Assembly: GCA_043812155.1 (NCBI GenBank)
Contig: JBDRMK010000017.1
Span: forward strand, 146,509-210,508
DNA from: Patescibacteria group bacterium
Lineage (GTDB): Bacteria; Patescibacteriota; Patescibacteriia; JAXHNJ01
Direction: 5' to 3'
Length of the DNA stretch: 64,000 bases
Shown here: positions 5,338-44,204 of the stretch, piece by piece
How the letters are laid out: each line of letters opens with the position of its first letter
Numbering within the stretch: the stretch's first letter is position 1
Made by a program: the position numbers and the translations under genes
The notes under the pieces: generated by a model
Seen by the model: the letters and a program-made list of their open reading frames with translations, nothing else
What the model was told of the DNA's origin: nothing
Databases searched by the model: none

Positions 5338-5593
5338 GTTGGTACCTCCTCGGTTAAAAACCTTTGGCCGCTGCGACACCATGCCGCAGCCGCCTGGAGG
5401 AAATTTTCCTTTTTCAAGGTACGTTCCTCCCCGGAAAGCTTATCTTATATAAGATCTCTAGGGAAGACTGAAAGCCAATGTTTCAGACCATCCAAATAAT
5501 GGAGTAGATACCTTGTCTTGTTAAAGTTACAAAGAACCTACCACCCTATCACAAATTTGAGAATTTGTCAATACCTGCTATAATCTATTCATT

Positions 5594-14394: not shown

Positions 14395-15402
14395 ATGGGC
14401 AGAAAATTAATCAGTATTATCGCGACGGTTATTGTTTCCGTGCTGGTCGGCTCAGGAATAGTTTATGCGGCTTCGGTGCGTAACATTACCACGACTTTAG
14501 GCGGAGTGGCCGGCGACTATTTTAATCTGGACGGGATACTAACGGTCAGCACGCTGAAAGTCGGCAGCCAAGGAGTAGGCGGCGTCACTTTTTTCAACGG
14601 CTCGATCGTGAACAACACGACAACGGCAGGCTTAGACAATCCGGTTACTTTCGGCGACAACGTGAGAATTGACGGCCGTATTTACCGCGGAGCGACGGCC
14701 GGACCTGGCGACACAATGCCCTTTATTGTCAATGATGATATGGAAATCAAGGGCAATTTAACTCTCAGCACGGGAAAAACGCTCGACTTATCCGGCGTAA
14801 CTGTCAGCGGTTTAGATAATTTTGCCGATCTCGGCCAAGCGGAAACGATTACGGCCAACTGGGTCAATACTCAAAATCCCTGGTCTTCGGCTGAGATCGC
14901 TGATATTACTCGAAGAGTCGCTTTGCCCTTGGCCAGTTTCTATTCGGATGCAGACGGCACCCCTGCCGCCATCACCACGACCACCGTGCCGAATCTCGCC
15001 TATACCGCCAATCAAGGCTTGTCTCTGGTTTACTCGGCCACGGAAACCACGGATATCGGGACGCAATTTACCGTGCCATCCGATTACGTTTCGGGCGGCA
15101 TTTTCAAAGTGTTGGTTGATACCTCCGCTATCCTTGTCGCAGATTTAAATCTTGATTTTAAGGTAGCCATTTCCCAAACGACAGACACAACCGCCTGGGA
15201 TACGGACATGGATGATGAGGATCCGGTTGATATTACCGGCACGGCCGGCACGCCAAAAATCGTCACTCTTACTCCGACCGACCAAACTGACATATCCGCC
15301 GGCGACACGATTTTTTTAGACTTGTTTCCTGATACTTACGGAGCGGCCGAGCCGGATTTGGAAATCTACGCCGTGTGGTTTGAATATACCGCTGTGCAGT
15401 AA
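14395..15402 (+). CDS. Thr/Asn-rich secreted surface protein, paralog A
   Basis: N-terminal signal anchor, then a 130-aa domain shared with the next gene (GVTFFNGSIVNNTTTAGLDNPVTFGDNVRIDGRIYRG identical), divergent C-terminus. RBS present. Confidence 0.7.
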   Translation: MGRKLISIIATVIVSVLVGSGIVYAASVRNITTTLGGVAGDYFNLDGILTVSTLKVGSQGVGGVTFFNGSIVNNTTTAGLDNPVTFGDNVRIDGRIYRGATAGPGDTMPFIVNDDMEIKGNLTLSTGKTLDLSGVTVSGLDNFADLGQAETITANWVNTQNPWSSAEIADITRRVALPLASFYSDADGTPAAITTTTVPNLAYTANQGLSLVYSATETTDIGTQFTVPSDYVSGGIFKVLVDTSAILVADLNLDFKVAISQTTDTTAWDTDMDDEDPVDITGTAGTPKIVTLTPTDQTDISAGDTIFLDLFPDTYGAAEPDLEIYAVWFEYTAVQ

Positions 15403-15516: not shown

Positions 15517-16284
15517 ATGAAAAAAATTTTAAGTGTCATTATCACGATCTTTGTCTCAGTTCTTATCGCCTCGGGAGTAGTCTATGCCGCCACGCGCAAC
15601 ATTACGGCCACCTTAGGCGGCGCTTCCGGCGACACTTTCCAGCTTTCCGGCGTTATGACGGTTAATTCCTTAAAAGTCGGGGCCCAAGGCACGGGCGGAG
15701 TCACTTTTTTCAACGGCTCGATCGTGAACAACACGACAACGGCAGGCTTAGACAATCCGGTCACTTTCGGCGACAACGTGAGAATTGACGGCCGTATTTA
15801 CCGCGGAGCAATCGCGGGGACAAGCGATACTCTGCCGGTAATCATTAACGATAATCTGGAAGTGGCCGGCGCCATTTCTGCCAGCAGCTTAACTGTTAAC
15901 GGAGTTTCTGTCGGCACGAAAAAAACCTATGAAGGCACTATCGATCTTACGAGCAGCGGCGATGAAATCGTCAGTATAGATACAGGCAATACTTGTTCAC
16001 CGGACACCAATACCAAATATTACAAATATCATTATAAAAAAATAGCCATCCCGGAAATTTCGGTCAGCAACCTCCCTAACCTCCGCGCCTACTGCCACGC
16101 CCACGCCGACAGCGGAATGGCCACAATGCTTCCTAATAGCCGAGACGTTTGGGTCGGCTGCAGTTTATATTACGCCGAAGGTTATGGTTATTTACTCTAC
16201 AAATACGAAAGCGAAACCTGCGCCGGCAGCGTCTCCTCGACTTACTATTACCTCGACGGACAATATAAAATTATTATTTATTAA
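15517..16284 (+). CDS. Thr/Asn-rich secreted surface protein, paralog B
   Basis: Same N-terminal domain as 14395, different C-terminal half. RBS AAGGAGG. Confidence 0.7.
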   Translation: MKKILSVIITIFVSVLIASGVVYAATRNITATLGGASGDTFQLSGVMTVNSLKVGAQGTGGVTFFNGSIVNNTTTAGLDNPVTFGDNVRIDGRIYRGAIAGTSDTLPVIINDNLEVAGAISASSLTVNGVSVGTKKTYEGTIDLTSSGDEIVSIDTGNTCSPDTNTKYYKYHYKKIAIPEISVSNLPNLRAYCHAHADSGMATMLPNSRDVWVGCSLYYAEGYGYLLYKYESETCAGSVSSTYYYLDGQYKIIIY

Positions 16285-30177: not shown

Positions 30178-30706
30178 TTAGATATTAAGCGATTAAGCGA
30201 TCAAGATATTGAGATTTTTTTGAGAGATTATAAATAAGACTGTTAATGCCTTTTATCAGGCCATTGTAACTCTCGTCAAGAATTTTAAAATTTCTTTCAG
30301 TCATGTAATGCTGACTTAAAGCAATCCTTAAATGGCTTTGAATTTCGTAAATTTCTCCCCGGCTGATATAGAGAATGCGGAATTTATCCTTATAATGGAA
30401 CCGGCCCTGGCTTTCCGCGATATTAGCCGCCACGGAAACGGCGGCTCGTCTCATCTGCGTGGTTAAACCAAAAATCTCGTCTTTGGGAAAAACGCGGGTT
30501 ACCTTGTAAATTTGTTCCGCCAAGCTTTGAGCTTTTTGCCAAATCTTTAAATCAAAAAAAGCGCGAGCCATATTTATTCCTTTCGCGCCACCATTTGTCT
30601 ATTTATATTTTAACTGAAGTCTTTAATAAGTCAAGTCCATTTATTCGCTCAGCATCTTAATCGCTTAATCGCTCACTCGCTCAATATCTCAATCACTTAA
30701 TATCTA
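30178..30706. mobile_element. TIR-flanked cassette carrying the four-helix-bundle gene
   Basis: Outer 12-mers TTAGATATTAAG (30178-30189) and CTTAATATCTAG (30695-30706) are inverted. Inner shared blocks CGATTAAGCGAT and ATCGCTTAATCG and a CAATATCT motif complete the imperfect TIRs. The outer ends supply the stop codons of both flanking ORFs. Confidence 0.5.
30185..30571 (-). CDS. four-helix-bundle protein (TIGR02436; '23S rRNA intervening-sequence protein' family)
   Basis: 128 aa with the characteristic pattern (IWQKAxxLA...AAxSVAANIAES...ISRGEIYEIQSHL). Confidence 0.8.
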   Translation of the reverse strand: MARAFFDLKIWQKAQSLAEQIYKVTRVFPKDEIFGLTTQMRRAAVSVAANIAESQGRFHYKDKFRILYISRGEIYEIQSHLRIALSQHYMTERNFKILDESYNGLIKGINSLIYNLSKKSQYLDRLIA

Positions 30707-32533: not shown

Positions 32534-32694
32534 AAGATTAAATTTAATGATTATAAATACTCACTTATTGTAGAAGAATATGATGAAATTGTCAAAGGAA
32601 CGTCTTGACATTTTTTATTCTTAAAGTTAAGATATGAACACAAAATTAGTACAGCCAAAGGTATTTACCCTCATCAGAAACGGAGGCAAAAGTG

Positions 32695-33258
32695 ATGAGA
32701 AAAATACTCTTGCTCGCGATTCTCGCCCTTTTCATTCTTCCCCTTATGGTCTCCGCGCAGAGCCCCTGCCTGGAAACCTGGGTCAGCCGGCATCCCGGAG
32801 AAACTCCGCTCATGCAGTGGTCGCCCGCTCCGGCCTGGACCAATCAAGCTCCTCTGGAAATCGGCGCCACTACTTGCCAAGAAGGCGTCAGCCTCTTTGA
32901 CCAGGTTTGGCGCGGACCGGATTCGGCTTCTTGGATCATCAATGTCTATGTTTATCGCGCGGCTTTGAACAGCGGATCGTTTTACATCTATGTGACGGCT
33001 GATTCCAGCGCCGCCGGCGTTCTCGCCCTGGATCTGTCAAACGCTTTCGGATTTTCCGACCGCTGCAAATGGTCAAGCGGCCACTCCCTCAACCTGAAGA
33101 ACGTACCGGAATTTCAGTTCGATCCGGAACATCCTTACTATCTACGGGTAGTGATCGCCTCAAACAGCCACGCGGTCTGCGCCTTGCGCTTCTGCGCCGA
33201 CGAAACGATCGGCGTCGAGCCCACCAGCTGGGGAATAATCAAGGGGATTTACCGGTAA
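32695..33258 (+). CDS. secreted Cys-containing hypothetical protein
   Basis: Signal peptide MMRKILLLAILALFILPLMVSA, RBS GGAGG. Local GC is about 56%. Confidence 0.5.
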   Translation: MRKILLLAILALFILPLMVSAQSPCLETWVSRHPGETPLMQWSPAPAWTNQAPLEIGATTCQEGVSLFDQVWRGPDSASWIINVYVYRAALNSGSFYIYVTADSSAAGVLALDLSNAFGFSDRCKWSSGHSLNLKNVPEFQFDPEHPYYLRVVIASNSHAVCALRFCADETIGVEPTSWGIIKGIYR

Positions 33259-33349: not shown

Positions 33350-36300
33350 TTAAGGAATGGATAATTGCCAGCCGATTTGGATGACGCCGGGATTTGAGGA
33401 TAAAGTCGGATAAACGAATTTATTCGCCTCAATAATCTTAGTATAATCGCGTCCGTTCCCGTAGAATCTTTCCGCGAGCTTCCACAAGGAATCGCCGGCC
33501 GCCACCGTGTATTTTACTTTACCGATAAATTGAAATACTGTTTCAGAAAATACATCAGCCGCCGAAGTTTTGGTAAAATTTAAGGCATTGGAAATCCTAG
33601 AGGATTTGCCGTTCAAATCAAAGGCGCGGACGGTAATTTCGTAACTTCCCTGGCCCAAACCGGAAACCGGCAGAGAATAAGCGAAAGAAGGCGTTTCATT
33701 AAGAGCGTTATTTACTACGGCGAATTCGTCCACGTATTGGCCGTCAACATAAACCTTGATCAAAGAATCATTGCGCGCCACGCCGCGGATGATCACTTCG
33801 GGATTGGTTCCGTCCTTGAAAATCGGCTCAAAAAGCGTGGGCGTGATATAAGGCAAAGCCACGGTAAAATAAATTTTTGGCGATCGATCCGAATAAACTC
33901 CGTCCGCATTGCGGGCGATCGTATATACGCTATGCACCCCGTTGGATAAATTCCTTCTTATTTTATAGAAAAATGAGCCGGTATCGGAAGGATGATCAGT
34001 GGAAAGAACCGTTTTTTCCAGATCATTATCAATAAAAATAAAAATAGTGTTATTAGAACGGGCCAGGCCGGTGATCGTCGGGCTTGAGGTGTCGATCGTA
34101 CTGTCGGCCTCTGGAAAAACAATGGTCGGCGAAGCCAAATAGGCCGACTCAGCCGCCAAAATAAATGTTTTGTCCGTTTCAAAAGCCGCCGTGTTGCCCG
34201 TGCTGAAAACTTTATAATGATAAGTCGTGCTGGCGGTCAATCCAGTAATCGTTATTTCATGAAGAGTGGTCAGGGTCGCACTGCTTGCCTCGCTTCCGTA
34301 ATCCGTGGTCAAGCCGTAAAGAACCCGGGAATCCGCCGCGTGATTGGTCGTCCAGGAGATTTTTACTGAAGTCGAAGAAAGCTGAGTCGCCGCCACGTTG
34401 CTGATGACCGTCCGGTCGCTGGTCACGATCGCTTCGGTTGTTGAATATTCGCTTTCAACGCCGTCCCCGTTTTTCGCTTTTACTTGAAAACTATAGGTAG
34501 TTTCCGGAGACAAACCGGTAATCGTTATGCCGCTGCTTCCCCAGACTGCTTGCGTCTGCCAGACCGCGGCCGGACCCAAAGAACCATCGGCTTGAACGTA
34601 ATTTCCCGTGCCAGCTTCATAAATCGCAAAAGATGTCGCCGCCGGATTATCATTATTATTGATCGATAGAGTCACGGTCGTCGCCGTAGAAACCAGGGTC
34701 GGTGTCCCCGGCACGTTGGCCAAAGTGTAGACCGAAGCAGAGGTCCCGTAGGAACTGGTGTTGCCCTGACTGTCGGTAAACCTGACATCGTAAGTATATT
34801 GAGTGTTGGGATTTAAAGAAGAATCGGTCTTTGTGCTTGTGCTGTTTGAGACGGCGGTTAAAGCGGTTGTGCCGTCCCTTCTTACCTGCCAGGTAGAAAG
34901 ACCGGACCCGTTTTCCGTCACGCTTGAAGGTTTGTTTAAGACAATGGAACTTGAAGTAAGGGTGCCGAAAGTGGGAGCGCCGACGCTTGAGGGAGCTTTA
35001 TTATCCACTCCAAAAGCCGAGGAAGTAGCCCAGGCGCTGGCGTTATCCGTACCGTCATTAGGCCTCACTTGCAAGTAAACGCTTGAATCCTCGGTATCGG
35101 CTAAATCCGTGGCGCTATCCCAAGCAAAAACATGGTCTTCACCCGGACTGGCTGAAGCAGTTAAGCCGGTTAAACCATCTCCTCCGGCAGTCATGGTCGC
35201 GTCTGTCCAGGAAGAACCGTCAACGGAATATTCAAGGCCTGAAGAAGCACCCTGAGAAATATTTGAAGTATCGCTGTCATAATCAACCAGATTGTAATTG
35301 ACCGAAATATCTCCTGACTGCCAGGTGGAAAAATCATCGTCAAAAGTGGCCTCAGGGTAATTATTCAAAGTCAGGGAAAGATTATCCAAAGAGACTTCTT
35401 GAGTGCCGTCGGAATGGAAAAAGGCCCGAATCAGAAGTTGGCCAGAGCCGGCCGGAAAAGTCGAGACATTCGTATCGATGTCAGAAGCTGTATTGGCTTG
35501 GCTGTAAGTGCCGTCGGAAGCGATCCAACCACCGCTGTAATATGACCAGGTGGAACCGTCATTATTGCTTAAAATGTATTTGATCTCGCCTCCATTTTTG
35601 GTGGCCGTTTCGGAAAAAGCGGATAACGTATCAAATGTGACGGCCGTACTATTAGTGATGACGGGGTCGTCGGCAGGATAAATCGTTTCCTCACTACCGG
35701 CGCTAGCTGTCTCTCCTAAACTTTTCCAAGCTTTATAATCATCCCATTCTGCTTCAGCATCGTCCCAAGTGTGAACTGTGGGATAAGCCCTATTAGCACA
35801 ATTAGATAGACTTTCGGTTGCTTGCTGAATAGCCTGAGTGCCATCAAGATAGCCCGTAATTTGTAACCAGCCAGGATCATCGCCACAGGTTGGTCGCCAA
35901 GTAGATTGTACATCTAATAATTGTGTATAACGAGTATCAACATTTTGACTAACAGTAATTGTTTCTCCAGTCCATGGTCCTTCGCCCATACCTGAATATA
36001 AAGTTACAATATTGGTGCTAGGTTGAGAACCCCACCACCAAACACCAATATCATTATCACCTTCATTTACATTATCATATATTCCGACGCTCATTAAATC
36101 AGTAGTGGCACTAGTACGCTTGCCCATTACTTCTAAATAGTAGTCATGGGCAGAGATATCCATAGTAGCGGTTTGATCAGCAATTAAACAATTAATGTTT
36201 GTTGGCCCAACGCCGGTTTTTTTTAATTTTCCATCAGCGACTGAAATTCTACTGGCACAATCGGCTCCAATCACTGTCCAGCTTGGATCAGAAGAAAAAT

Positions 36301-36880
36301 CTTCGTAATATTCGTAAACATTAGAATAATTTTCTGGCGGACTGGTAGCACTATCGTTATCATAATACAAATAATAACCACTATCTGATTCGGTAGCGGA
36401 AATAGCTGCCTGGGCTTTAAAACGCACCGTATTTAAACTCGGAGTAACGGCTAAATCTTGCGCCAGATAATCCCGGTCAATCTCGGTATTGGCTGACCCG
36501 TTCCAATAGACGATTCTTAAGTCATACTGATTCGCCTGCATTTTTAAGGCCGCCACCAAAGAAGCGATATCGGCATTAAGCGTCAGGGTGTCATCCGTCG
36601 TAATGGCCGTCGAACCGGCCGTTACCGTGATTTTTTTCCGATAGGCGTAGTCCGTATCCCACCAGGCCGGAGAACGCCCCAAGACCGCCTGGCCGCCGGT
36701 CACCTGAATTTTTGTGTCGTCATAAGTATAATTGCCGGCCGTGGTAAAGGGGATATTCTGAGTGGCGGCCAAAACTTTAGACGGTAAAGGGATATAATTG
36801 AAATTCAGAACAAAAACAAGAGCAAAGATTAATAATGCCTGTAAAACTTTTTGCCATTTTTTTGTTTTCTTGGTCGCCAT
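33350..36880 (-). CDS. giant cell-surface protein: signal peptide, FN3/Ig-like domains, conserved Big-like C-terminal module, C-terminal LysM
   Basis: 1176 aa. FN3-like segment (SVKISWTTNHAADSRVLYGLTTDYG...TYHYKVFSTGN). The last 50 aa are LysM-like (VAAGDSLWKLAERFYGNGRDYTKIIEANKFVYP...GWQLSIP). Confidence 0.75.
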   Translation of the reverse strand: MATKKTKKWQKVLQALLIFALVFVLNFNYIPLPSKVLAATQNIPFTTAGNYTYDDTKIQVTGGQAVLGRSPAWWDTDYAYRKKITVTAGSTAITTDDTLTLNADIASLVAALKMQANQYDLRIVYWNGSANTEIDRDYLAQDLAVTPSLNTVRFKAQAAISATESDSGYYLYYDNDSATSPPENYSNVYEYYEDFSSDPSWTVIGADCASRISVADGKLKKTGVGPTNINCLIADQTATMDISAHDYYLEVMGKRTSATTDLMSVGIYDNVNEGDNDIGVWWWGSQPSTNIVTLYSGMGEGPWTGETITVSQNVDTRYTQLLDVQSTWRPTCGDDPGWLQITGYLDGTQAIQQATESLSNCANRAYPTVHTWDDAEAEWDDYKAWKSLGETASAGSEETIYPADDPVITNSTAVTFDTLSAFSETATKNGGEIKYILSNNDGSTWSYYSGGWIASDGTYSQANTASDIDTNVSTFPAGSGQLLIRAFFHSDGTQEVSLDNLSLTLNNYPEATFDDDFSTWQSGDISVNYNLVDYDSDTSNISQGASSGLEYSVDGSSWTDATMTAGGDGLTGLTASASPGEDHVFAWDSATDLADTEDSSVYLQVRPNDGTDNASAWATSSAFGVDNKAPSSVGAPTFGTLTSSSIVLNKPSSVTENGSGLSTWQVRRDGTTALTAVSNSTSTKTDSSLNPNTQYTYDVRFTDSQGNTSSYGTSASVYTLANVPGTPTLVSTATTVTLSINNNDNPAATSFAIYEAGTGNYVQADGSLGPAAVWQTQAVWGSSGITITGLSPETTYSFQVKAKNGDGVESEYSTTEAIVTSDRTVISNVAATQLSSTSVKISWTTNHAADSRVLYGLTTDYGSEASSATLTTLHEITITGLTASTTYHYKVFSTGNTAAFETDKTFILAAESAYLASPTIVFPEADSTIDTSSPTITGLARSNNTIFIFIDNDLEKTVLSTDHPSDTGSFFYKIRRNLSNGVHSVYTIARNADGVYSDRSPKIYFTVALPYITPTLFEPIFKDGTNPEVIIRGVARNDSLIKVYVDGQYVDEFAVVNNALNETPSFAYSLPVSGLGQGSYEITVRAFDLNGKSSRISNALNFTKTSAADVFSETVFQFIGKVKYTVAAGDSLWKLAERFYGNGRDYTKIIEANKFVYPTLSSNPGVIQIGWQLSIP

Positions 36881-36897
36881 TATTTTTGTATCTCTGA

Positions 36898-39126
36898 TTA
36901 GAATATTTTGACGTAATAACCTGTTTTGTAAAATTGAAAAGAATTAGAAATAAGAGAAGCCTTGCCGGAAAAATCAAAAGCTTGAGCCCGTACCTGATGC
37001 TGACCGGTACTTAAATTATTTAAGGGAATTTTATAGGAAAAATAGACCGTGTCGAGATTTTTATCGATTACCGGAAACTGAATGTAGGTCTTGCCGTCTA
37101 AATATATTTTTATCAATGAATTATTGTGGCAGACCCCCCTAATAATTAAACCGGGGCTTCCCCGATAATCAGCGACTGGCGGAAAAAGTGTCGGGCCGAT
37201 ATACGGTAATTCCACGGTAAAATATATTTTCGGCGAACGTTCGGAAAAAACTCCGTCGGCATTGCGGGCGATCGTGTAAACACTGTGCTGACCGGGCGAT
37301 AAATTCCGCCTTAATTTATAGAAAAAGGAGCCGGTGCCGGAAGAATGATTAGTGGAAAGAACCGCGTTTTCCAAATCGCTGTCAATAAAAATAAAAATTG
37401 TGTTATTGGAGCGGGCCAAGCCGATGATCGTCGGTTTTGTCACGTTCATAGTTATTTCATTTTGCGGATAAAGAACCGTTGGCGAGGCTAAATAGGGCAA
37501 ATCTTCTATTTCTTCTATTGTTTCTGCTGGCAGGGAACAAGAGCGGGATATCGCGGGTCTGTCAGCCGTTGTTCCGCAATTATTAGCATCCGTGCAAACG
37601 CGGGTCTCAAGACTACTGGCACAAGTTGACCAATCGGCACAGGACCAACTTTCAACACAGGGGCAAACACCTCCTTCGTCAATACTACCATCACAATCAT
37701 TATCTATACTGTCGCATATCTCGGTGGCTCCGGGATGAACAGCGCTGTTCGAATCATCACAATCAACTCCGGTATGGGCGCAGGTGCCTAAACTTGAAGC
37801 GCCATAGCCGTCGCTGTCCGCATCCGTGCAAGCGGAACACCAGTAGCTTTCGTCCGCTTCGCCGGAACAATTATTATCCAGGCCGTCGGCGCAGACTTCC
37901 GCCGCCCCAGGATTGATACTTGAGCTTTCAACGCGGCAGGATAAATCGCTTAATTTTGAAAGGGTAAAAGTGCCGTCTTCCTGCCAATTTACTCTTTTCA
38001 CCCGTAAAGCCCGCAAGTGGTCCGTGGCGTCCCCGGAATATTCATTGGAAATACTTTCTGTCATGAACCAAGTATCATCGTATGGCTTTACTACCTCAAT
38101 AGCGTTAACCCCAGCGTCAGGGATAGACCCTTGATAAACCCAATTAGCGCTGCCGCTGTCATCGGCCGTCAAATTTTCCGAGGTAGCGTATTGCACCATG
38201 GCCGGCGGCTCGGTATCCGACCAGTCGGTAAAAGTCAGATAATAATTACCATTATATTCCATGGCAAACGGATTTTCCGCCTGACCGCCCTTAGTGGCAT
38301 TAATATATCCTGCGCCGGTCCAATCAACTAAATTATCCGAATATGCCACATCAACAACGGCTTGGCCTCCCGGTTTGTATTTCGCGGTAGCGAACATCAC
38401 CCAACGGCTGTTTGTTTCATCTCTGATAACCATCGGGTCCCGGCATTGCTCATCAAAACTTGTGCCATCACCCCAGGTCGTCCAAGCGTTATCGCATTCG
38501 TAGATGCAGCCGTCTTGGACTACGCCGGAACATTTGCCGGTGGTCGGGTAAAGAGTCCAAGTATTGAGATCCGTGGAAGTGGCCAGGCCGATGCGTTCCG
38601 TCCAGGGATTGGTTCCCGACTGAACGCCGGTAAAAAACATATAATACGTGCTGCCGCTTTTGACAATATGCGGCGCCCAGATCGATGCGTAATAAGTGCC
38701 GGCCTGTCGGGCCAAAGCCGTACCGACATAAGCAAGGTTCTTAAAATCAGTCGTGGTAAAATGAGCGATATCGCTATATATCGAAGATCTGTTCCACATG
38801 TGGAAAAATAGGTGCCAGACGCCGCTGTCATCCTGGATCCAGGCATGATCCGCGATATCGTTTGTGCCGTCCGGATCGCCGTACGAGGCCAGAAAAGCCG
38901 GCGCCGCCGTCTCATCGCAACTTTCATTATTCTTATAGGCGGAATAAAGAGTGTCCATACAGTCATTTCCGCCTGATCCTTCGCTGGCGTAGCCGTCGCT
39001 ATCCAGATCTGTTGAACCGTAAACTCTCGCCCACCAAAAAAATCCCGTGGCCAAAATCAGACACAGAGAAATAATAAGAAATTGTTTATGTTTTATTTTT
39101 GTTTTTAACAAACTTTTTATCCTCAA
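36898..39126 (-). CDS. surface protein: five-bladed beta-propeller glycoside-hydrolase-like domain (GH43/GH32-like) + Cys/Asp-rich metal-binding repeats + conserved Big-like C-terminal module
   Basis: WHLFFHMW, SIWAPHIV...YYMFFTG and DPMVIRDE motifs. DCDDSNSAVHPGATEICDSIDNDCDG repeats. C-terminal module about 75% identical to the neighbours. No LysM. Confidence 0.65.
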   Translation of the reverse strand: MRIKSLLKTKIKHKQFLIISLCLILATGFFWWARVYGSTDLDSDGYASEGSGGNDCMDTLYSAYKNNESCDETAAPAFLASYGDPDGTNDIADHAWIQDDSGVWHLFFHMWNRSSIYSDIAHFTTTDFKNLAYVGTALARQAGTYYASIWAPHIVKSGSTYYMFFTGVQSGTNPWTERIGLATSTDLNTWTLYPTTGKCSGVVQDGCIYECDNAWTTWGDGTSFDEQCRDPMVIRDETNSRWVMFATAKYKPGGQAVVDVAYSDNLVDWTGAGYINATKGGQAENPFAMEYNGNYYLTFTDWSDTEPPAMVQYATSENLTADDSGSANWVYQGSIPDAGVNAIEVVKPYDDTWFMTESISNEYSGDATDHLRALRVKRVNWQEDGTFTLSKLSDLSCRVESSSINPGAAEVCADGLDNNCSGEADESYWCSACTDADSDGYGASSLGTCAHTGVDCDDSNSAVHPGATEICDSIDNDCDGSIDEGGVCPCVESWSCADWSTCASSLETRVCTDANNCGTTADRPAISRSCSLPAETIEEIEDLPYLASPTVLYPQNEITMNVTKPTIIGLARSNNTIFIFIDSDLENAVLSTNHSSGTGSFFYKLRRNLSPGQHSVYTIARNADGVFSERSPKIYFTVELPYIGPTLFPPVADYRGSPGLIIRGVCHNNSLIKIYLDGKTYIQFPVIDKNLDTVYFSYKIPLNNLSTGQHQVRAQAFDFSGKASLISNSFQFYKTGYYVKIF

Positions 39127-39128
39127 AC

Positions 39129-42100
39129 TTAAGGAATAATCAATTGCCAGCCGATTTGAATAACGCCAGGATTAGTGGACAAAGTCGGATAAACGGATTT
39201 ATTCGCTTCAATAATCTTGGTGTAATCGCTTCCCTTGCCGTAGAATCTTTCGGCAATCTTCCATAATGAATCGCCGGCGACCGCTTGGTATCTGACGCCC
39301 GAAGCAAACTGATAAACAGTCGGCAAAGACTCGACCGCTGATTTTTCCTGGATGAAATCCACGGCGTTGGAAATTCTTGAGGCCTCGCCCGATGAACTGA
39401 AAGCCTGGGTCGTAACGCTGTGGCTGCCTTCCTGCAAATCGGAAAGCGGCAAAGTGTAGGCAAAAGAAGCGGTATTGTTACTGACGCTGTTGGTGACATT
39501 AAACTCGCCGACATATTCACCGTCCACGTAAACCTTGATCAAAGAATCATTGTAAGCGACACCGCGAATGATGACTGTCGGGTTATCACCATCAGTGAAA
39601 ATGGGTTTTAAAAGCGTCGGGGTGATGTAAGGTAAGTCCACGGTGAAGGTGATTTTCGGCGAACGCTCGGAATAAACGCCGGCCGTGTTTCTGGCAATGG
39701 TATAAACGGTATGAGTCCCCTTGTTTAAATTACTCTTTAACTTATAAGCGAAAGAGCCAGTGCCGGAAGTATGGTTAGTGCTTAAAACCGTTCCGATCAT
39801 ATCGCTGTCAATAAAAATAAAGATGGTATTATTTGAGCGAGCCAAGCCGGTGATCGTCGGTAAAACCGTATCAACCGTTGAATTATCCGTAGGATAAATC
39901 AAAGTCGGTGAAGCCAGATAAACTTCCTCCTCCGATTCTTCAGCTGCTTCCTCGTTGGTTGCGAAAGTCGCGTCCGCGTCAAAAGTGGTGGTGTTGCCCG
40001 TGCTTAAAACTTCATAATGATAAGTGCTGCCGGCGGTCAATCCAGTGATAGTGATGGAGTGGCTGACGGTTAAATTACTGTCGTATATTTCACTACCGTA
40101 AGCGGTGGTCAAACCGTATCTGACTTTGGAATCGGCGGCGTGATTGGTTGTCCAGGTCACCTTGACCGAAGTCGTGCTTAGGGCTTCTGACTGGACGTTG
40201 GTAATAACTGTGGGCTCTAAAGTTGAAGTGGCAAAACTCTGGCTGGAATAAACGGATTCGTTGTTTGCCCGGTCTTTGGCCACTGGCTTGACATAATAAG
40301 TCTGGCCGGCGGAAAGGCCGGTTAAAGTCGCGGAATGCGTCGTGGTTAAATTGGAATCTTCGGTCGTGGTATTGCCCAGACTGTCAGTCAGGCCCCAGGC
40401 AACCTGCGTTTTTGTCGCTTCATCTGTTTGCCAAGTCACCACGGCGGTAAAAGTGGTGGTATCAATATCAAAATTAGAAACCGTGGCCGGAATCGTATCC
40501 TTTAAAACATAGAAACCGTCATTCAAAACTTCCCTGTAATTGCCGGCTGTGTCATAAACCCGGAAAGAAACATAATTTGTCCCTTGCTGTAAACCGCTAA
40601 AATTCACGGCCCAGGGCGTGGTATAAGAAGTTGCGTCATCCGTATAAATATTGGTCCAGCTAAGAATATCGCTTCCGCCCTGACTGGTGCCGATGGCATA
40701 CTGGGCGTAATCCAAAGGCGCGCCGCCGTTGGAAAGGAAAGATACCGGATAAGTCGTGCCGGCTGTATTGCGCCAGGTATCATCTCCGGTCTGATTATTT
40801 ACGACTTCCGGTGAAGTCACGTCTACTTTATAGGGCCCTAGATCCAAAGTCGCGCCGGCATCAGCGGCAACATCATCGCCGTTATAGGCCTTAACATGCA
40901 AATACCAACTCCCCTCGCTGGTCGCGGTTAATTCTTTGGTGTCTGAAGACCATTGGGTTTCTGTGTCGTTAAAGACGTATGTTTCATTTTGGTTCCAGAC
41001 ATAACGATAGTATTGGACTCCGCCGGCCCCAAAGCCGGCTTCATTGGTGAATGTAAAATTTAAATCATTTGTCCAAGCACTTTCTGTCCCATCTGAAGTA
41101 ACATCAGCGGCAGCCGCTAAAGTATATTTAGCTTCGCCGGCAATGGCGCCGTTTTCTTCACTATCGCCATTTCTGGTTTTGGCGTCAAAAGTATATTCGG
41201 TGTTGGCGACTAATCCGCTTTTCTCCCAGGTATTGGTCTGCAGCCAGCCGGAGTTGGTGGCCGTGGCGCTTTCAGTAAAATATATCCCAGAAGTACCGGA
41301 AGCTAGATTGGAAATTAACCCTTTACTAGAAACAGTAATAGCATTTTTGCCTACTGAATCAAATGATAAACCAGTTGGAGATTCAATGGAAGTATAAACA
41401 CTCCGATTATCAGTATTATCCGTGTTACAGGAATTTTGCGCCTGAAGATACCGGGTATATTGTGTGTTAGCGGATAAAGAATTTTCCTGCCAAGAAACAG
41501 TGTTAGCCGCCAAATCGCCGGATTTATTATTATTACCCGTATCCATTACCCGATAGTTAGCTTCATCAGAAATATCTTCCCAACTCCAGGTGATTGAACT
41601 TTCAGTCTGGCTAGAATGTCCAAGATAACTTCCTTCAGGTGACACTGGCATACTAACTAAAGGATTAACCGTAATAGTTTTTGTTAAAGAATCATAATAA
41701 TCTTCCGAAGGAAAAGGGACAACAACTCTGAATTTGATGGTTTGAGTACCGGCTGAGTTCCCATACACCGTCTTACTCCAAGTTGCTGTTTCAGGACTAG
41801 ATGAGCCATAATACGTGCCTGATGAAACCTTAATAGGCGTTGAAGTTGTCATCGCACTGCCGTTTACTAAACCAAGATACTCGGTTGAAGTAGTACAAGT
41901 CGTTCCCGGTGCACTGTCTCTAAAATATCCGGAAAAAGTAAATGAGGCACCTTTGCAAATCGTCTGATCTGAAGCCGGTGCCGTGACAGTAACGGTATAT
42001 GGTTCCGTACAAGTAATTGCCGCTTGCACAGTCGATATTTTAAAGTTAAATATAAAAAATGATGTAGCCAAGCCAATGAAAGTCAAAAACACCGTGAAAA

Positions 42101-42362
42101 AGCTCAAGGCGTATTTTTTGTAGGTTAAATACCGGGAATAAGAAACAATAAATTCGCCTTTTTCATCCCGGCCGGCTAAACTGGAAAAACTGTCATAAGG
42201 GAGATTTTTCAGGAAATGGGGCAAATAAGCCAGACTGAATAGGATTTCCTGAAAAATGACTGGCAAACACTTAAGACAGCGCTTTATCCCTTTTGGTGTT
42301 TCATTAAAGCACTTTAACCGCTTTTTATGGGCATTGTAAGTTTTTATTAGCAAATTATCCAT
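39129..42362 (-). CDS. giant cell-surface protein: N-terminal TM anchor, multiple FN3/Ig-like domains, conserved Big-like module, C-terminal LysM
   Basis: 1077 aa. FN3 segment and the C-terminal 250 aa are paralogous to 33350..36880. The LysM tails are about 85% identical at nucleotide level. Confidence 0.75.
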   Translation of the reverse strand: MDNLLIKTYNAHKKRLKCFNETPKGIKRCLKCLPVIFQEILFSLAYLPHFLKNLPYDSFSSLAGRDEKGEFIVSYSRYLTYKKYALSFFTVFLTFIGLATSFFIFNFKISTVQAAITCTEPYTVTVTAPASDQTICKGASFTFSGYFRDSAPGTTCTTSTEYLGLVNGSAMTTSTPIKVSSGTYYGSSSPETATWSKTVYGNSAGTQTIKFRVVVPFPSEDYYDSLTKTITVNPLVSMPVSPEGSYLGHSSQTESSITWSWEDISDEANYRVMDTGNNNKSGDLAANTVSWQENSLSANTQYTRYLQAQNSCNTDNTDNRSVYTSIESPTGLSFDSVGKNAITVSSKGLISNLASGTSGIYFTESATATNSGWLQTNTWEKSGLVANTEYTFDAKTRNGDSEENGAIAGEAKYTLAAAADVTSDGTESAWTNDLNFTFTNEAGFGAGGVQYYRYVWNQNETYVFNDTETQWSSDTKELTATSEGSWYLHVKAYNGDDVAADAGATLDLGPYKVDVTSPEVVNNQTGDDTWRNTAGTTYPVSFLSNGGAPLDYAQYAIGTSQGGSDILSWTNIYTDDATSYTTPWAVNFSGLQQGTNYVSFRVYDTAGNYREVLNDGFYVLKDTIPATVSNFDIDTTTFTAVVTWQTDEATKTQVAWGLTDSLGNTTTEDSNLTTTHSATLTGLSAGQTYYVKPVAKDRANNESVYSSQSFATSTLEPTVITNVQSEALSTTSVKVTWTTNHAADSKVRYGLTTAYGSEIYDSNLTVSHSITITGLTAGSTYHYEVLSTGNTTTFDADATFATNEEAAEESEEEVYLASPTLIYPTDNSTVDTVLPTITGLARSNNTIFIFIDSDMIGTVLSTNHTSGTGSFAYKLKSNLNKGTHTVYTIARNTAGVYSERSPKITFTVDLPYITPTLLKPIFTDGDNPTVIIRGVAYNDSLIKVYVDGEYVGEFNVTNSVSNNTASFAYTLPLSDLQEGSHSVTTQAFSSSGEASRISNAVDFIQEKSAVESLPTVYQFASGVRYQAVAGDSLWKIAERFYGKGSDYTKIIEANKSVYPTLSTNPGVIQIGWQLIIP

Positions 42363-42507
42363 CCTTAATAATTACCACTAAATATAGCTAGCTAAAATTG
42401 GGCAATTAATACGCCCTTATATATATTATACGCTAAAATTAGCCATTTGTCAAGAGCAAATAAGCTAAAACTTGATATTTATTCATATTTAATTTATCCT
42501 TTTAAAT

Positions 42508-43200: not shown

Positions 43201-43273
43201 GGGCCGTTAGCTCAGTTGGTAGAGCGTCGCATTCGCATTGCGAAGGTCGGGAGTTCGAATCTCCCACGGTCCA
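43201..43273 (+). tRNA. tRNA-Ala (anticodon CGC), no encoded CCA
   Basis: G3:U70 identity pair, anticodon loop TTCGCAT, T-arm GGGAGTTCGAATCTCCC. Confidence 0.8.
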
Positions 43274-43365
43274 TTGCCCGTACGGCGGTCAGGTTGCCGA
43301 GACTCAGGGAAGACTCCCGGTATCTCCACCAAATATTAGCAGTTAGGCTCATTGTGTGAAAATTT

Positions 43366-43443
43366 GGGGTTTCCCGCCACAAAAAACAAGAAAAGGGGCA
43401 GGACCCCGCCAGCTGGCGGTGGCGAGTCCCCTCGGGTCCACCA
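43366..43443 (+). repeat. 78-nt structured repeat ending in ...GGGTCCACCA (tRNA-Ala acceptor 3' strand + CCA), copy 1
   Basis: About 90% identical to 44125-44202. Outer stem GGGGTTTCCCGCCAC/GTGGCGAGTCCCC, inner hairpins GGGGCAGGACCCC and palindrome CGCCAGCTGGCG. Confidence 0.6.
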
Positions 43444-43468
43444 AGTATATATTTTACATTAATAGATC

Positions 43469-43785: not shown

Positions 43786-44032
43786 CTGGGCCTCTAGCTC
43801 ATTTGGTATCCCTGGCCCTATGGTCCGGCCCCTGGCAGAGCCGGGATCCCGGTTAAAAAACCAGGGAGACCCCGGCGCAAAGCGCCAGGGGGAGCGCTGT
43901 AAATTAAACAATTTATTAATATAATTTTGGGCCTCTAGCTCATTTTCCGCCAAAGGCGGATCCGCGCTCCGTCGCCCAAGCTATGGAGCGTCGGCGACCT
44001 CTGGCGGAGGATAGAGCGCCCCGCACTTTTTT
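43786..44032 (+). other. two truncated tRNA 5' fragments (GGGCCTCTAGCTCATTT...) within a GC-rich structured spacer
   Basis: At 43789 and 43930 the first about 20 nt resemble a tRNA acceptor/D-arm. The full tRNA-Ala at 44033 begins GGGCCTGTGGCGC. Confidence 0.4.
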
Positions 44033-44105
44033 GGGCCTGTGGCGCAACTGGTAGCGCGCCTCCATGGCATGGAGGAGGTTGTGGGTTCGAGACCCATCAG
44101 GTCCA
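44033..44105 (+). tRNA. tRNA-Ala (anticodon GGC), no encoded CCA
   Basis: G3:U70, anticodon loop ATGGCAT, T-arm GTGGGTTCGAGACCCAT. Confidence 0.8.
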
Positions 44106-44124
44106 GAAAAGTGCGGGGAGATGA

Positions 44125-44202
44125 GGGGTTTCCCGCCACAAAAAATTAAAAAAGAGGCGGGACCCCGCCAACTGGCGGTGGCGATCCCCCTGAGGTCCAC
44201 CA
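44125..44202 (+). repeat. 78-nt structured repeat ending in ...GAGGTCCACCA, copy 2
   Basis: See copy 1. Lies immediately downstream of tRNA-Ala(GGC). Confidence 0.6.
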
Positions 44203-44204
44203 AT

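What the first reader, a model, noticed from the sequence alone, without database searches (positions are those of the whole stretch)
33350..42362. Three consecutive giant surface-protein genes sharing a near-identical C-terminal module; two end in LysM
Proteins of 1176, 742 and 1077 aa combine a signal peptide or TM anchor with FN3/Ig-like repeats, a GH43/32-like beta-propeller, or MopE-like Cys/Asp metal-binding repeats. All three end with the same about 200-aa module (LYP..TIIGLARSNNTIFIFID...YTIARNA.GV.SERSPKI.FTV.LPYI.PTL). Two then carry a LysM peptidoglycan-binding tail (..GDSLWK.AERFYG.G.DYTKIIEANK.VYP..IQIGWQL.IP). Nucleotide identity in the shared module is about 85%, implying recent duplication or gene conversion. 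In a small-genome, possibly episymbiotic bacterium such a family is a candidate host-attachment or cell-wall-targeting adhesin system. One member without LysM carries a glycoside-hydrolase-like domain.
Basis: partly seen in the sequence, partly recalled or inferred. Interest (0 to 1): 0.65.

Follow-up and report, generated by a model that had tools for sequence, protein, structure and literature searches.

The report
LysM-anchored modular surface protein operon
Three adjacent genes in an uncultured Patescibacteria genome encode large secreted proteins in which different working ends (a sugar-cutting enzyme, lectin-like and adhesin-like domains) sit on the same inherited stalk of two antibody-like domains, two of them ending in a cell-wall-binding LysM tail; this is a real but fairly ordinary kind of bacterial surface-protein family, and the copies are old rather than recently duplicated.

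Summary
The three ORFs and their domains are real. Pfam supports fn3, LysM, GH43/GH32 and MopE above its curated cut-offs. The "near-identical" claim is wrong. The shared ~190-aa module is 57-62% identical in protein and 60-67% in DNA. Only a 225-nt core of A versus B reaches 83%. Synonymous sites are saturated (dS 0.64 at best), and copies group by orthologue across genomes, so the paralogues are old.

The module is two tandem homologous Ig-like domains of the Big_13 kind. An exhaustive profile search found 3,212 cluster representatives, including giant multi-repeat proteins.

The conserved unit is larger in A and C: fn3, acidic linker, Ig, Ig, LysM (~370-390 aa). The same cassette carries other heads in other Patescibacteria, including an M14 carboxypeptidase. 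Relatives hold one, two or three such genes at the same chromosomal site. This indicates repeated tandem duplication of the 3' part of an ancestral C-type gene, joined to new heads.

Most likely function: Sec-exported envelope proteins held on peptidoglycan by LysM, displaying enzymes or binders on a beta-sandwich stalk. Whether LysM binds the cell's own wall or a host's wall is unresolved. Interest is modest.

The parts
42425..42453 (-). Candidate promoter of the C-B-A operon. TTGACA-17 nt-TATAAT, 12/12 consensus, about 63 nt upstream of the C start codon.
   Evidence: consensus scan only. Sequence read. Intergenic gaps are 2-17 nt between C and B and 17 nt between B and A, consistent with co-transcription.
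39129..42362 (-). Gene C (1077 aa; NCBI MFH1367046.1, 'LysM peptidoglycan-binding domain-containing protein'). This is the ancestral 'C-type' member: conserved N-terminal leader, then beta-sandwich/fn3 repeats, then the fn3-Ig-Ig-LysM cassette.
   Evidence: Orthologues are present alone at the same chromosomal site in L003 and L057.
42018..42362 (-). C-type N-terminal leader (aa 1-115). It has a basic N-terminus, a weakly hydrophobic helix, the motif RDE[KR]G..SY[ST]R[YH]L.Y[KR][KR], one TM segment (aa ~84-109) and an A-x-A-like site (VQA|A).
   Evidence: Conserved in 7 C-type proteins from distant Patescibacteria. Absent from every other ORF in the 0.88 Mb of sequence held.
39345..39920 (-). 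Shared module in C (aa 815-1006): two tandem Big_13-like Ig domains.
39132..39293 (-). LysM domain of C (aa ~1024-1077).
   Evidence: Pfam PF01476, 28.8 bits against a cut-off of 20.9. NCBIfam YgaU-type LysM.
36898..39126 (-). Gene B (742-aa ORF; the real start is probably TTG at 39111, giving 737 aa). Order of parts: signal/anchor, five-bladed propeller glycoside-hydrolase-like head, MopE/Cys-rich region, acidic linker, Ig pair. It has no fn3 and no LysM, and ends in the conserved tail ..YKTGYYVKIF.
   Evidence: Full-length orthologue P0027 (736 aa) in L056. Orthologue in L001 is split by a frameshift.
37942..38901 (-). B head (aa ~76-395): five-bladed beta-propeller of the GH32/GH43/GH159 fold class. 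D93, R229-D230 (RDP) and E284 are invariant in 16 homologues.
37537..37938 (-). B Cys-rich region (aa ~397-530) with two MopE-type putative metal-binding motifs. It contains 16 of the protein's 24 cysteines.
   Evidence: PF11617, E 7.2e-24. Cys positions.
36922..37494 (-). Shared module in B (aa 545-735): two tandem Big_13-like Ig domains.
   Evidence: Weak direct Big_13 hit at 19 bits, below the 27-bit cut-off.
33350..36880 (-). Gene A (1176 aa; NCBI MFH1367044.1, 'fibronectin type III domain-containing protein'). Order of parts: signal peptide (VLA|AT), DUF2341-like domain, unannotated beta-rich domains, 3 fn3, Ig pair, LysM.
   Evidence: Orthologues in L001 (68% identical) and L056.
36212..36664 (-). 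A head, DUF2341-like region (aa 73-223).
   Evidence: 36-38% identical to P0285 and P0286. P0285 aligns through its own PF10102 segment, and P0286 also carries Laminin_G_3. There is no direct Pfam hit in A even at E<=10, so the assignment is transitive only.
35336..35683 (-). A unannotated ~110-aa domain (aa 400-515). It is shared at 44-59% identity with otherwise unrelated surface proteins, including prepilin-type (N_methyl) proteins.
34166..34993 (-). A fn3 repeats (aa ~630-905). The last one (PurAcP_N-like, 'WTTNHAADS..YG') belongs to the conserved C-terminal cassette.
33566..34141 (-). Shared module in A (aa 914-1105): two tandem Big_13-like Ig domains.
   Evidence: AF2 pLDDT 91.2, two beta-sandwiches. 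Foldseek matches tandem Ig/FN3 structures, including SiiE BIg domains. Ig1 against Ig2 by hhalign: probability 95.7%, E 1e-8.
33353..33514 (-). LysM domain of A (aa ~1123-1176).
   Evidence: Pfam PF01476, 31.0 bits against a cut-off of 20.9, full model 1-43. Best solved relative by sequence is the Kbp/YgaU LysM (7pvc, E 8e-5), followed by YaaH, Ecp6 and LytE.

Best explanation
C-B-A is a chromosomal operon in a Patescibacteria genome. It encodes a paralogous family of Sec-exported, modular cell-envelope proteins.

The family arose by repeated tandem duplication of the 3' part of an ancestral 'C-type' gene. Each copy kept the C-terminal stalk/anchor and acquired a different N-terminal head.

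The conserved C-terminal cassette is: fn3, acidic/Pro-rich linker, two Big_13-type Ig domains, LysM. The LysM tail tethers the mature protein non-covalently to peptidoglycan, most simply the cell's own wall. The rigid beta-sandwich domains act as a stalk that holds the head away from the wall.

The heads differ:
- A carries a DUF2341-like region plus further unannotated beta-rich domains (candidate glycan or partner binding).
- B carries a probably active five-bladed-propeller glycoside hydrolase of the GH32/GH43 fold class, plus Cys/Asp-rich MopE-type motifs.
- C carries a long string of fn3/Ig-like beads (fibril or adhesin-like).

B kept only the Ig pair and lacks LysM. It is therefore either released, retained by its N-terminal hydrophobic segment, or held through the shared Ig pair.

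Shown here: gene structure, domain identities, folds, family distribution, synteny, and the age and mode of duplication. Inferred, not shown: export, signal-peptide cleavage, peptidoglycan binding, enzyme activity and substrate, and whose wall is bound.
For: DOMAINS AND FOLDS
- Pfam hits above cut-off for fn3, LysM, GH43/GH32N and MopE.
- The module model has pLDDT 91 and forms two beta-sandwiches. It matches tandem Ig/FN3 structures. Its two halves are homologous.

CASSETTE
- fn3-linker-Ig-Ig-LysM aligns end to end in 10 proteins from at least 7 genomes with unrelated N-terminal parts.
- These include an M14 carboxypeptidase + InlB-B-repeat head in L006 and a DUF2341-like head in P0102.

DUPLICATION MODE
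- The same chromosomal site (Trx/TrxR on one side; a ~190-aa secreted ORF, bactofilin, DAGK and IF-2 on the other) holds C alone in L003 and L057, C plus an A-type gene in L058, and C+B+A in the window and L056.
- Paralogues share only 3' parts, of different lengths: ~390 aa in the window, ~1000 aa in L058 and ~370 aa in L006.

AGE
- Modules cluster by orthologue with bootstrap 81-100.
- dS is 0.64 or higher, and dN/dS is about 0.1-0.2 where dS is not saturated.

EXPORT AND OPERON
- One N-terminal hydrophobic segment per protein, followed by A-x-A-like sites conserved across orthologues.
- Consensus promoter upstream of C, and 2-17 nt gaps between the genes.

ESTABLISHED KNOWLEDGE
- LysM domains bind peptidoglycan or chitin non-covalently and can display fused proteins on monoderm cell walls (PMC4004799 and PMC6783300, abstracts listed).
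Against: - No experiment supports export, peptidoglycan binding or hydrolase activity.
- The LysM here is closest in sequence to the Kbp/YgaU LysM. From my own knowledge, Kbp is a cytoplasmic potassium-binding protein rather than a wall anchor.
- C-type proteins carry a conserved ~85-aa region before the TM segment. That fits a stable N-terminal membrane anchor better than a disposable signal peptide. In that case LysM would be the distal tip, not the base.
- B lacks LysM, so the anchoring model does not explain its retention.
- The catalytic-residue assignment rests on motif position and invariance, not on a residue-level structural superposition.
- The promoter and operon calls are consensus matches only.
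Confidence: 0.6

Rival explanations
1. Host-directed grappling hooks. The N-terminal hydrophobic segment is an uncleaved membrane anchor, so the chain runs outward from N to C. The C-terminal Ig-Ig-LysM is then the distal tip and binds the peptidoglycan (or chitin) of a host cell. Enzymatic paralogues such as B, or the M14 peptidase in L006, would then act on the host envelope. This is the first reader's 'host-attachment / cell-wall-targeting' idea in mechanistic form.
For: - C-type proteins have a conserved ~85-aa pre-TM region with a fixed motif across distant lineages, which suggests a retained and functional N-terminus.
- Roughly ten beta-sandwich domains could span tens of nm (inference).
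- Cassette-bearing paralogues carry envelope-degrading-type heads: a GH-like head in B and an M14 carboxypeptidase in L006.
- Patescibacteria are widely inferred to be episymbionts with elaborate surface proteins thought to bind hosts (PMC8080830).
Against: - A-x-A-like sites conserved 8-12 residues after the TM segment in all C-type proteins, and in A, suggest signal-peptidase cleavage.
- An acidic/Pro-rich linker lies just N-terminal of Ig-Ig-LysM. From my own knowledge, such linkers resemble the wall-spanning segments next to the anchors of monoderm surface proteins.
- Cassettes of paralogues cluster by lineage, not by head type. This fits tuning to the cell's own envelope at least as well as tuning to a host.
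- No host is known for this MAG.
Confidence: 0.22
2. Recently duplicated or gene-converted adhesin family. The module is kept near-identical by ongoing conversion among the three genes.
For: - Within the 75-codon Ig1 core, A versus B has the lowest synonymous divergence of any pair (pS 0.43, dS 0.64). It is lower than the A orthologue pairs (dS 0.76 and 1.91).
- In an Ig1-only tree, window A groups with the B clade at 70% bootstrap. One old, local A-B conversion tract is therefore possible.
Against: - Whole-module identity is only 57-67%.
- dS is 0.64 or higher everywhere and saturated in Ig2.
- In the whole-module and Ig2 trees the copies group by orthologue across genomes, with bootstrap 81-100.
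- The B-A adjacency is already present in two other diverged assemblies, L001 and L056.
- The high amino-acid identity of the Ig1 core holds equally between species (73-93%), so it reflects purifying selection.
Confidence: 0.05
3. Generic domain sharing with no functional unit. The three genes are unrelated surface or secreted proteins that each happen to contain common Big_13 Ig-like repeats. Adjacency and the LysM tails are incidental, and no shared anchoring or display role exists (for example, simple secreted enzymes and fibrils, or S-layer-like components).
For: - Big_13-type repeats are extremely common and occur in many unrelated architectures: 3,212 representatives, with Kelch, OmpA and C-terminal TM contexts.
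- B has no LysM.
Against: - The window copies are far closer to each other (57-67%) than to most other genomes (27-41%). They form one clade with their orthologues.
- The shared region in A and C extends beyond the Ig pair to fn3 and LysM, about 390 aa at 62% identity.
- The same cassette recurs on different heads in tandem genes in three separate lineages.
- The genes are 2-17 nt apart behind one consensus promoter.
Confidence: 0.13

Closest known systems
LysM-anchored cell-wall proteins of monoderm bacteria (for example Lactococcus AcmA, enterococcal AtlA, Bacillus LytE/YaaH) and engineered LysM surface display
   Same: A C-terminal LysM domain is fused to a secreted functional part. Attachment to peptidoglycan is non-covalent. 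The Pfam LysM hit is above cut-off, with sequence matches to solved LysM domains including YaaH and LytE. The principle is described in PMC4004799 and PMC6783300 (abstracts listed).
   Different: - There is a single LysM rather than the usual several repeats, and it is of the Kbp/YgaU sequence type.
- It is preceded by a fixed fn3-linker-Ig-Ig stalk.
- The heads are not classical peptidoglycan hydrolases.
- Binding is untested.
Big_13 (PF19077) bacterial Ig-like repeat proteins, and giant BIg adhesins such as Salmonella SiiE
   Same: The shared module is two tandem beta-sandwich Ig-like domains. A profile of it retrieves multi-Big_13 giants at E down to 1e-209, and those giants score Big_13 at E ~0. 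Foldseek matches SiiE BIg tandems.
   Different: - There are only two copies, at a fixed position next to the anchor, not a long repeat array.
- The window copies themselves score below Pfam's Big_13 cut-off (19 bits against 27).
- The organism is a Patescibacterium (regarded as single-membraned, from my own knowledge), and there is no type 1 secretion context.
GH43 / GH32 (clans GH-F and GH-J) five-bladed beta-propeller glycoside hydrolases
   Different: - It belongs to a distinct, uncharacterised subfamily (members about 345-540 aa, 44-57% identical to B's head) found mostly in Krumholzibacteria and Latescibacteria MAGs.
- The substrate is unknown.
- Here it is fused to MopE motifs and an Ig pair.
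Large surface proteins of CPR/Patescibacteria proposed to mediate host attachment (for example Vampirococcus lugosii)
   Same: Large secreted or membrane proteins rich in fibronectin-type and other adhesion-type domains, in a small-genome Patescibacterium. They are proposed, but not shown, to bind hosts (PMC8080830).
   Different: The proteins here are smaller (0.7-1.2 kaa against 1.4-4.2 kaa). They carry a defined LysM-ending cassette and a traceable history of duplication and head swapping.

Membership tests
LysM domain (PF01476) | Sequence match to the ~43-residue LysM profile above the curated threshold, covering the whole domain | tested here: met
   A scores 31.0 bits over model positions 1-43. 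C scores 28.8 bits over positions 3-43. The cut-off is 20.9. phmmer finds solved LysM domains: Kbp at 8e-5, then YaaH, Ecp6 and LytE.
LysM domain (PF01476) | Binding to GlcNAc-containing glycans (peptidoglycan or chitin) | not testable with these tools
   This needs a binding assay with the purified cassette and sacculi or chito-oligomers.
Big_13 bacterial Ig-like domain (PF19077) | Sequence match to the Big_13 profile above the gathering threshold | tested here: inconclusive
   - In the window only B gives a hit, at 19 bits against a cut-off of 27. The C orthologue P0058 scores 20.6 bits.
- Cassette homologues L004 (27.2 bits) and L016 (31 bits) pass.
- A profile of the module retrieves proteins that score Big_13 at E ~0.
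- Membership therefore holds at superfamily level by transitive evidence only.
Big_13 bacterial Ig-like domain (PF19077) | Ig-like beta-sandwich fold, usually in tandem | tested here: met
   - AF2 pLDDT 91.2; 15 strands in two sandwiches.
- Foldseek probability 1.0 to tandem Ig/FN3/BIg structures.
- The two halves are homologous: hhalign probability 95.7%.
Glycoside hydrolase family 43 / 32 (five-bladed propeller furanosidase-type enzymes) | Profile match above the curated threshold | tested here: met
   GH43 scores 51.6 bits against 32.2. GH32N scores 32.4 bits against 22.1. Both pass, so the family assignment is ambiguous.
Glycoside hydrolase family 43 / 32 (five-bladed propeller furanosidase-type enzymes) | Five-bladed beta-propeller catalytic domain | tested here: met
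   [not shown]
Glycoside hydrolase family 43 / 32 (five-bladed propeller furanosidase-type enzymes) | Catalytic acidic triad: Asp base/nucleophile, Asp transition-state stabiliser or pKa modulator, Glu general acid | tested here: inconclusive
   D93 (IADHAW), D230 (CRDP) and E284 (AENP) are invariant in 16 homologues from several phyla. They lie in the expected order. No residue-level superposition on a solved active site could be made, and the HMM alignment to BT1760 was blade-shifted.
Glycoside hydrolase family 43 / 32 (five-bladed propeller furanosidase-type enzymes) | Hydrolytic activity on a defined glycoside | not testable with these tools
   This needs a recombinant enzyme assay.
MopE-type putative metal-binding motif (PF11617) | Profile match above threshold | tested here: met
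   84.2 bits against a cut-off of 27, E 7.2e-24, two stretches in B. Metal binding was not tested.
DUF2341 (PF10102) | Profile match in protein A | tested here: not met
   There is no Pfam hit in A aa 39-660 even at E<=10. The only evidence is transitive: A 73-223 is 36-38% identical to P0285 and P0286, and the P0285 alignment runs through its PF10102 segment. I therefore call this region 'DUF2341-like' only.
Fibronectin type III (PF00041) | Profile match above threshold | tested here: met
   A scores 45.1 bits and C scores 34.1 bits against a cut-off of 25.

The most novel reading that the evidence does not exclude
The fn3-Ig-Ig-LysM cassette may be a Patescibacteria-specific, lineage-tuned targeting module. 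Enzymes and binders (GH-like propeller, M14 carboxypeptidase, DUF2341-like heads) have been grafted onto it repeatedly by tandem duplication of the 3' part of one ancestral gene at one chromosomal hot spot. In this reading its LysM tip recognises the peptidoglycan of the host cell rather than the bacterium's own wall. The locus would then be a swappable toolkit for attaching to and remodelling a host envelope during episymbiosis. The unusually conserved first Ig domain (73-93% identity across paralogues and species) would act as a common docking surface. That surface would also recruit the LysM-less enzyme B.
Probability: 0.15. Interest if true: 0.6.

Novelty: new variant of a known kind. Interest (0 to 1): 0.3.

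Why it matters
How Patescibacteria build their surface and contact other cells is poorly understood. Most candidates are simply 'large proteins with adhesion domains'. This locus offers something more concrete:
- a short, conserved C-terminal cassette (fn3-Ig-Ig-LysM) that can be expressed and tested for binding to own versus foreign peptidoglycan;
- a natural series of one-, two- and three-gene versions of the same chromosomal site, showing how new surface functions are added by partial duplication and head replacement.

It also flags an uncharacterised five-bladed-propeller glycoside-hydrolase subfamily shared with Krumholzibacteria and Latescibacteria. None of this changes a paradigm. All the parts are known domain types used in a familiar way.

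Tried and rejected
- **Word-indexed homologue search.** With module+LysM it found only two module relatives, which at first made the module look rare. The exhaustive profile search overturned this.
- **Exact-sequence contig look-ups.** Look-ups for A and for B (both candidate starts) found nothing, although A and C are in the clustered protein collection under NCBI accessions.
- **B head against PDB sequences.** phmmer gave no hits. The profile search gave only partial, blade-shifted matches.
- **Module profile against PDB sequences.** Nothing significant.
- **Pfam on the N-terminal 620 aa of A and the N-terminal half of C.** Nothing at relaxed thresholds except one sub-threshold fn3 in C.
- **C-type N-terminal leader as a general sorting signal.** Rejected. 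An HMM of the leader hits only C-type proteins in the 0.88 Mb of related sequence held.
- **Diversity-generating retroelement.** Considered because a bAvd-like/23S-IVP ORF lies 3 kb away. Rejected. No reverse transcriptase is nearby, and no template/variable repeat pair appears among the window repeats.
- **Assembly artefact or collapsed repeat.** Rejected. The copies are 33-40% diverged in DNA, and the gene order recurs in independent assemblies.
- **Rfam at relaxed threshold on the tRNA-rich spacer upstream of C.** Only the tRNAs were found.
- **Literature searches.** No paper describing this cassette was found. The search was limited and does not prove novelty.

Full report
**1. What is in the sequence**

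Three minus-strand ORFs occupy 33350-42362 exactly as described:
- C: 39129-42362, 1077 aa
- B: 36898-39126, 742 aa
- A: 33350-36880, 1176 aa

They are transcribed in the order C, B, A. The C stop and the first possible B start are 2 nt apart. A GAGGA lies 8 nt before a second TTG at 39111, and a protein starting there matches the N-terminus of orthologue P0027. The real B start is therefore probably 39111, giving 737 aa. The B stop and the A start are 17 nt apart.

A perfect TTGACA-17-TATAAT lies about 63 nt upstream of C. This is a consensus match only, but together with the spacing it suggests one operon.

The flanking genes are housekeeping: IF-2, NusA, RNase Y, pyruvate phosphate dikinase, a Na+-pyrophosphatase, bactofilin, thioredoxin and thioredoxin reductase. 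The locus is therefore chromosomal.

A and C are in NCBI as MFH1367044.1 ('fibronectin type III domain-containing protein') and MFH1367046.1 ('LysM peptidoglycan-binding domain-containing protein'). Both come from a 212,565-bp contig of a 'Patescibacteria group bacterium' MAG.

**2. Domain content**

- fn3 in A and C
- one complete LysM at the very C-terminus of A and of C
- GH43 and GH32N in B
- two MopE-type motifs in B (E 7e-24)

NCBIfam and a PDB sequence search place the LysM nearest the Kbp/YgaU type, with further matches to YaaH, Ecp6 and LytE.

Each protein has a single N-terminal hydrophobic segment.

The N-terminal 620 aa of A has no Pfam hit at all. However:
- aa 73-223 is 36-38% identical to proteins that carry DUF2341 or Laminin_G_3, and the P0285 alignment runs through its DUF2341 segment.
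- aa 400-515 is a ~110-aa domain shared at 44-59% identity with otherwise unrelated surface proteins, including prepilin-type proteins.

**3. The shared module, measured**

| Comparison | Result |
|---|---|
| BLASTP, ~190 aa, all three pairs | 57-62% identity, E 1e-64 to 1e-71 |
| A vs C, extended region (~390 aa: fn3 + module + LysM) | 62% identity |
| Codon-aligned DNA, whole module | 60-67% identity |
| DNA, 75-codon core of first Ig domain, A vs B | 83% |
| DNA, same core, A vs C and B vs C | 72-73% |
| DNA, LysM-coding ends, A vs C | 82% |

'Near-identical' and 'about 85%' therefore overstate the similarity.

An AlphaFold model of the module (pLDDT 91) is two consecutive beta-sandwiches. 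It matches tandem Ig/FN3 structures, including SiiE BIg domains. Its two halves are homologous to each other (hhalign probability 95.7%, E 1e-8).

**4. How common the module is**

The word-indexed search found almost nothing. The exhaustive profile search of 1.84 billion cluster representatives found 3,212 hits at E<=1e-3 and 480 at E<=1e-30. These include proteins of up to 6,837 aa with up to 30 copies.

Those giants score as Big_13 (PF19077) at E ~0, and they occur with Kelch or OmpA domains.

A scan of one genome per species found 53 loci. The named ones are all Patescibacteria, Parcubacteria or Falkowbacteria MAGs; others are labelled only 'bacterium', and about twenty third-party assemblies carry 'uncultured Gammaproteobacteria' or 'Actinomycetota' labels. 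Identity to the module is 27-41%, with one locus at 72%.

Most of these 53 loci encode small proteins of roughly 340-620 aa. These have a signal peptide, two or three such Ig domains and a tail of about 75-230 aa. My strict test found a C-terminal TM helix in about a quarter of them.

The window's own copies fall below Pfam's Big_13 cut-off, so membership is at superfamily level.

**5. The real conserved unit is a larger cassette**

I aligned the last 370 aa of ten proteins from at least seven genomes. The conserved unit is: fn3 (PurAcP_N-like, 'WTTNHAADS..YG'), acidic/Pro-rich linker, Ig1, Ig2, short linker, LysM. Mean pairwise identities by domain:

| fn3 | Ig1 | Ig2 | LysM | short linker (Ig2-LysM) |
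|---|---|---|---|---|
| 51% | 50% | 45% | 57% | 20% |

The N-terminal parts of these proteins are unrelated to one another. L006 has two tandem genes, and L004 has the same pair cut off by its contig end. One L006 gene is C-type (1112 aa). The other (1738 aa) has a Peptidase_M14 head plus InlB B-repeats. The two share only the last ~370 aa, at 50% identity.

**6. Comparative genomics of the locus**

In the relatives L003, L057 and L058 the locus sits at the same chromosomal site. Downstream lie a convergent ~190-aa secreted ORF, bactofilin, DAGK and IF-2. Upstream, L003 and L058 have thioredoxin and thioredoxin reductase; the L057 contig ends too soon to show this side. The content of the site varies:

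| Locus | Genes at the site |
|---|---|
| L003 (72% module identity; flanks 75-77% DNA identity) | C only |
| L057 | C only |
| L058 | C-type (P0072, 1464 aa) + DUF2341-like-headed gene (P0102, 1825 aa) |
| L056 | end of C, then B, then A |
| L001 | B, then A (upstream cut by contig end) |
| window | C, B, A |

P0102 shares about 1000 C-terminal aa at 66% identity with its neighbour P0072. It shares only the DUF2341-like domain and the cassette with window A. In L001 the B orthologue is split by a frameshift.

The duplication boundaries thus differ between lineages (~390, ~1000 and ~370 aa). Cassettes of neighbouring paralogues are each other's closest relatives within their lineage. The simplest reading is recurrent tandem duplication of the 3' part of a resident C-type gene, joined to new 5' heads. 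Long-term concerted evolution is the alternative.

**7. Age of the paralogues**

In bootstrapped NJ trees the modules group by orthologue:
- A with L056_A: 100
- B with L056_B and L001_B: 100
- C with L003_C: 81-95

Nei-Gojobori estimates give dS of 0.9 to saturated for nearly all pairs. dN/dS is about 0.1-0.2 where dS is not saturated.

The one exception is the Ig1 core of A versus B, with dS 0.64. This is lower than the A orthologue pairs (dS 0.76 and 1.91). In an Ig1-only tree, window A joins the B clade at 70% bootstrap. One old, local conversion tract is possible. Recent duplication or ongoing conversion is not supported.

The Ig1 core is 73-93% identical in protein across both paralogues and species. 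This points to strong purifying selection.

**8. The B head**

The propeller region has many homologues, about 345-540 aa long (most ~400), at 44-57% identity. Where a source names them they are 'family 43 glycosylhydrolase', GH32-type or beta-xylosidase. The named NCBI entries come from Krumholzibacteria and Latescibacteria MAGs, and a few also carry MopE motifs.

In a 16-sequence alignment, D93 (IADHAW), W150-x-P152, R229-D230 (RDP) and E284-N285 are invariant, as are four cysteines. Numbering follows the 742-aa ORF.

The fold class is certain. The CAZy family and the substrate are not. The catalytic triad is inferred from invariance and order only. Identity this high across phyla suggests horizontal transfer of the head (inference).

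**9. The C-type leader**

C and six C-type proteins from distant lineages share a ~115-aa N-terminus. It consists of a basic start, a weakly hydrophobic helix, the motif RDE[KR]G..SY[ST]R[YH]L.Y[KR][KR], one TM segment, and an A-x-A-like site 8-12 residues after it (VQA|A, AQA|A, LEA|A, VEA|A, TTA|K, IGA|K).

An HMM of the leader hits no other ORF in the 0.88 Mb held. It is therefore family-specific rather than a general sorting signal. A has a plain signal peptide with VLA|AT, and its L001 orthologue has VWA|AT.

**10. Mechanism**

The best-supported model is that these are Sec-exported envelope proteins. LysM ties the C-terminus to peptidoglycan, and the fn3/Ig beads form a stalk that presents the head.

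Points in favour of the cell's own wall as the LysM target:
- the conserved cleavage-type sites after the TM segments;
- the acidic/Pro-rich linker next to the cassette;
- clustering of cassettes by lineage rather than by head type.

Points that keep a host-directed model alive:
- the conserved pre-TM region of C-type proteins;
- the envelope-active heads in the family (the GH-like head and the M14 peptidase).

In the host-directed model the N-terminus is a stable anchor and LysM is the distal tip. Neither model explains how the LysM-less B is retained. One speculative answer is docking through the conserved Ig1.

Large surface proteins with adhesion-type domains are already a recognised theme in CPR bacteria and are routinely proposed as host-attachment factors (PMC8080830). 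LysM-mediated wall display is well established in monoderms (PMC4004799 and PMC6783300, abstracts listed).

**11. Verdict**

The evolutionary inference (recent duplication or conversion) is wrong. The adhesin or cell-wall-targeting interpretation is plausible but untested.

The locus is best described as a Patescibacteria variant of LysM-anchored modular surface proteins. It has a defined fn3-Ig-Ig-LysM cassette and a documented history of head swapping by partial tandem duplication.

Interest is modest (0.3). It is a good, testable handle on Patescibacteria surface biology, but it would not surprise a specialist.

Noticed in passing
window 43353-43444 and 44112-44203: A 92-nt direct repeat, 83% identical. 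One copy starts 6 nt and the other 80 nt downstream of a tRNA-Ala gene (43201-43273 and 44032-44106). It is GC-rich with self-complementary stretches and ends ...GGTCCACCAA. There is no Rfam match even at E<=1. It could be a tRNA-linked small RNA or a processing element.
   Followed up: partly
window 43788-43900 and 43929-44025: Two ~100-nt GC-rich elements that both begin GGGCCTCTAGCTCATTT, which resembles the 5' acceptor/D-arm of a tRNA. Each is preceded by an AT-rich TATAAT-like stretch. Neither is called as a tRNA by ARAGORN or Rfam. They could be degenerate or split tRNA genes, or structured RNAs.
   Followed up: partly
window 32692-33258 (+): A 188-aa ORF with a clear signal peptide and no Pfam hit. 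It is convergent with gene A. A homologue (30-50% identical) lies immediately downstream of the last cassette gene in every syntenic relative examined (L003, L057, L058). It may be functionally linked to the surface-protein locus.
   Followed up: partly
window 42018-42362 (-), N-terminus of gene C: A conserved ~115-aa leader (RDE[KR]G..SY[ST]R[YH]L.Y[KR][KR] motif, then a TM segment, then an A-x-A-like site). It is specific to C-type proteins across distant Patescibacteria. Whether it is an extended signal peptide or a retained cytoplasmic domain is unknown.
   Followed up: yes
window 39111-39126 (-): The listed TTG start of B (39126) lies 2 nt after the C stop. A second TTG at 39111 has a GAGGA 8 nt upstream and gives an N-terminus matching orthologue P0027. 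B is therefore probably 737 aa.
   Followed up: yes
L001 2-1587: In the related JGI contig the B orthologue is split into two ORFs by a frameshift just after the MopE region. The second ORF (P0001, 207 aa) is only the Ig pair. This is either a pseudogene or an assembly error.
   Followed up: partly
window 4068-5417 (-): A 449-aa ORF with a partial LysM/SafA-like match. It is another LysM-type protein in the window and does not carry the Ig module.
   Followed up: no
window 30185-30571 (-): A 128-aa 23S-rRNA-IVP / bAvd-like four-helix-bundle protein. No reverse transcriptase or template/variable repeat pair is nearby, so there is no evidence of a diversity-generating retroelement. A homologue is also present in L059.
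   Followed up: partly
window 14478-14745 and 15594-15861: A 268-nt direct repeat at 78% identity inside two adjacent plus-strand ORFs (14395-15402 and 15517-16284). It looks like a tandem pair of paralogous genes.
   Followed up: no
window 37942-38901 (-), and P0160-P0279: The B head belongs to a large, uncharacterised five-bladed-propeller glycoside-hydrolase subfamily. Members are about 345-540 aa, with four invariant cysteines, and many have a lipoprotein-like LxxGC N-terminus. It scores equally well against GH32, GH43 and GH159 structures. It may be a distinct CAZy-level family, and the head may have reached Patescibacteria by horizontal transfer.
   Followed up: partly
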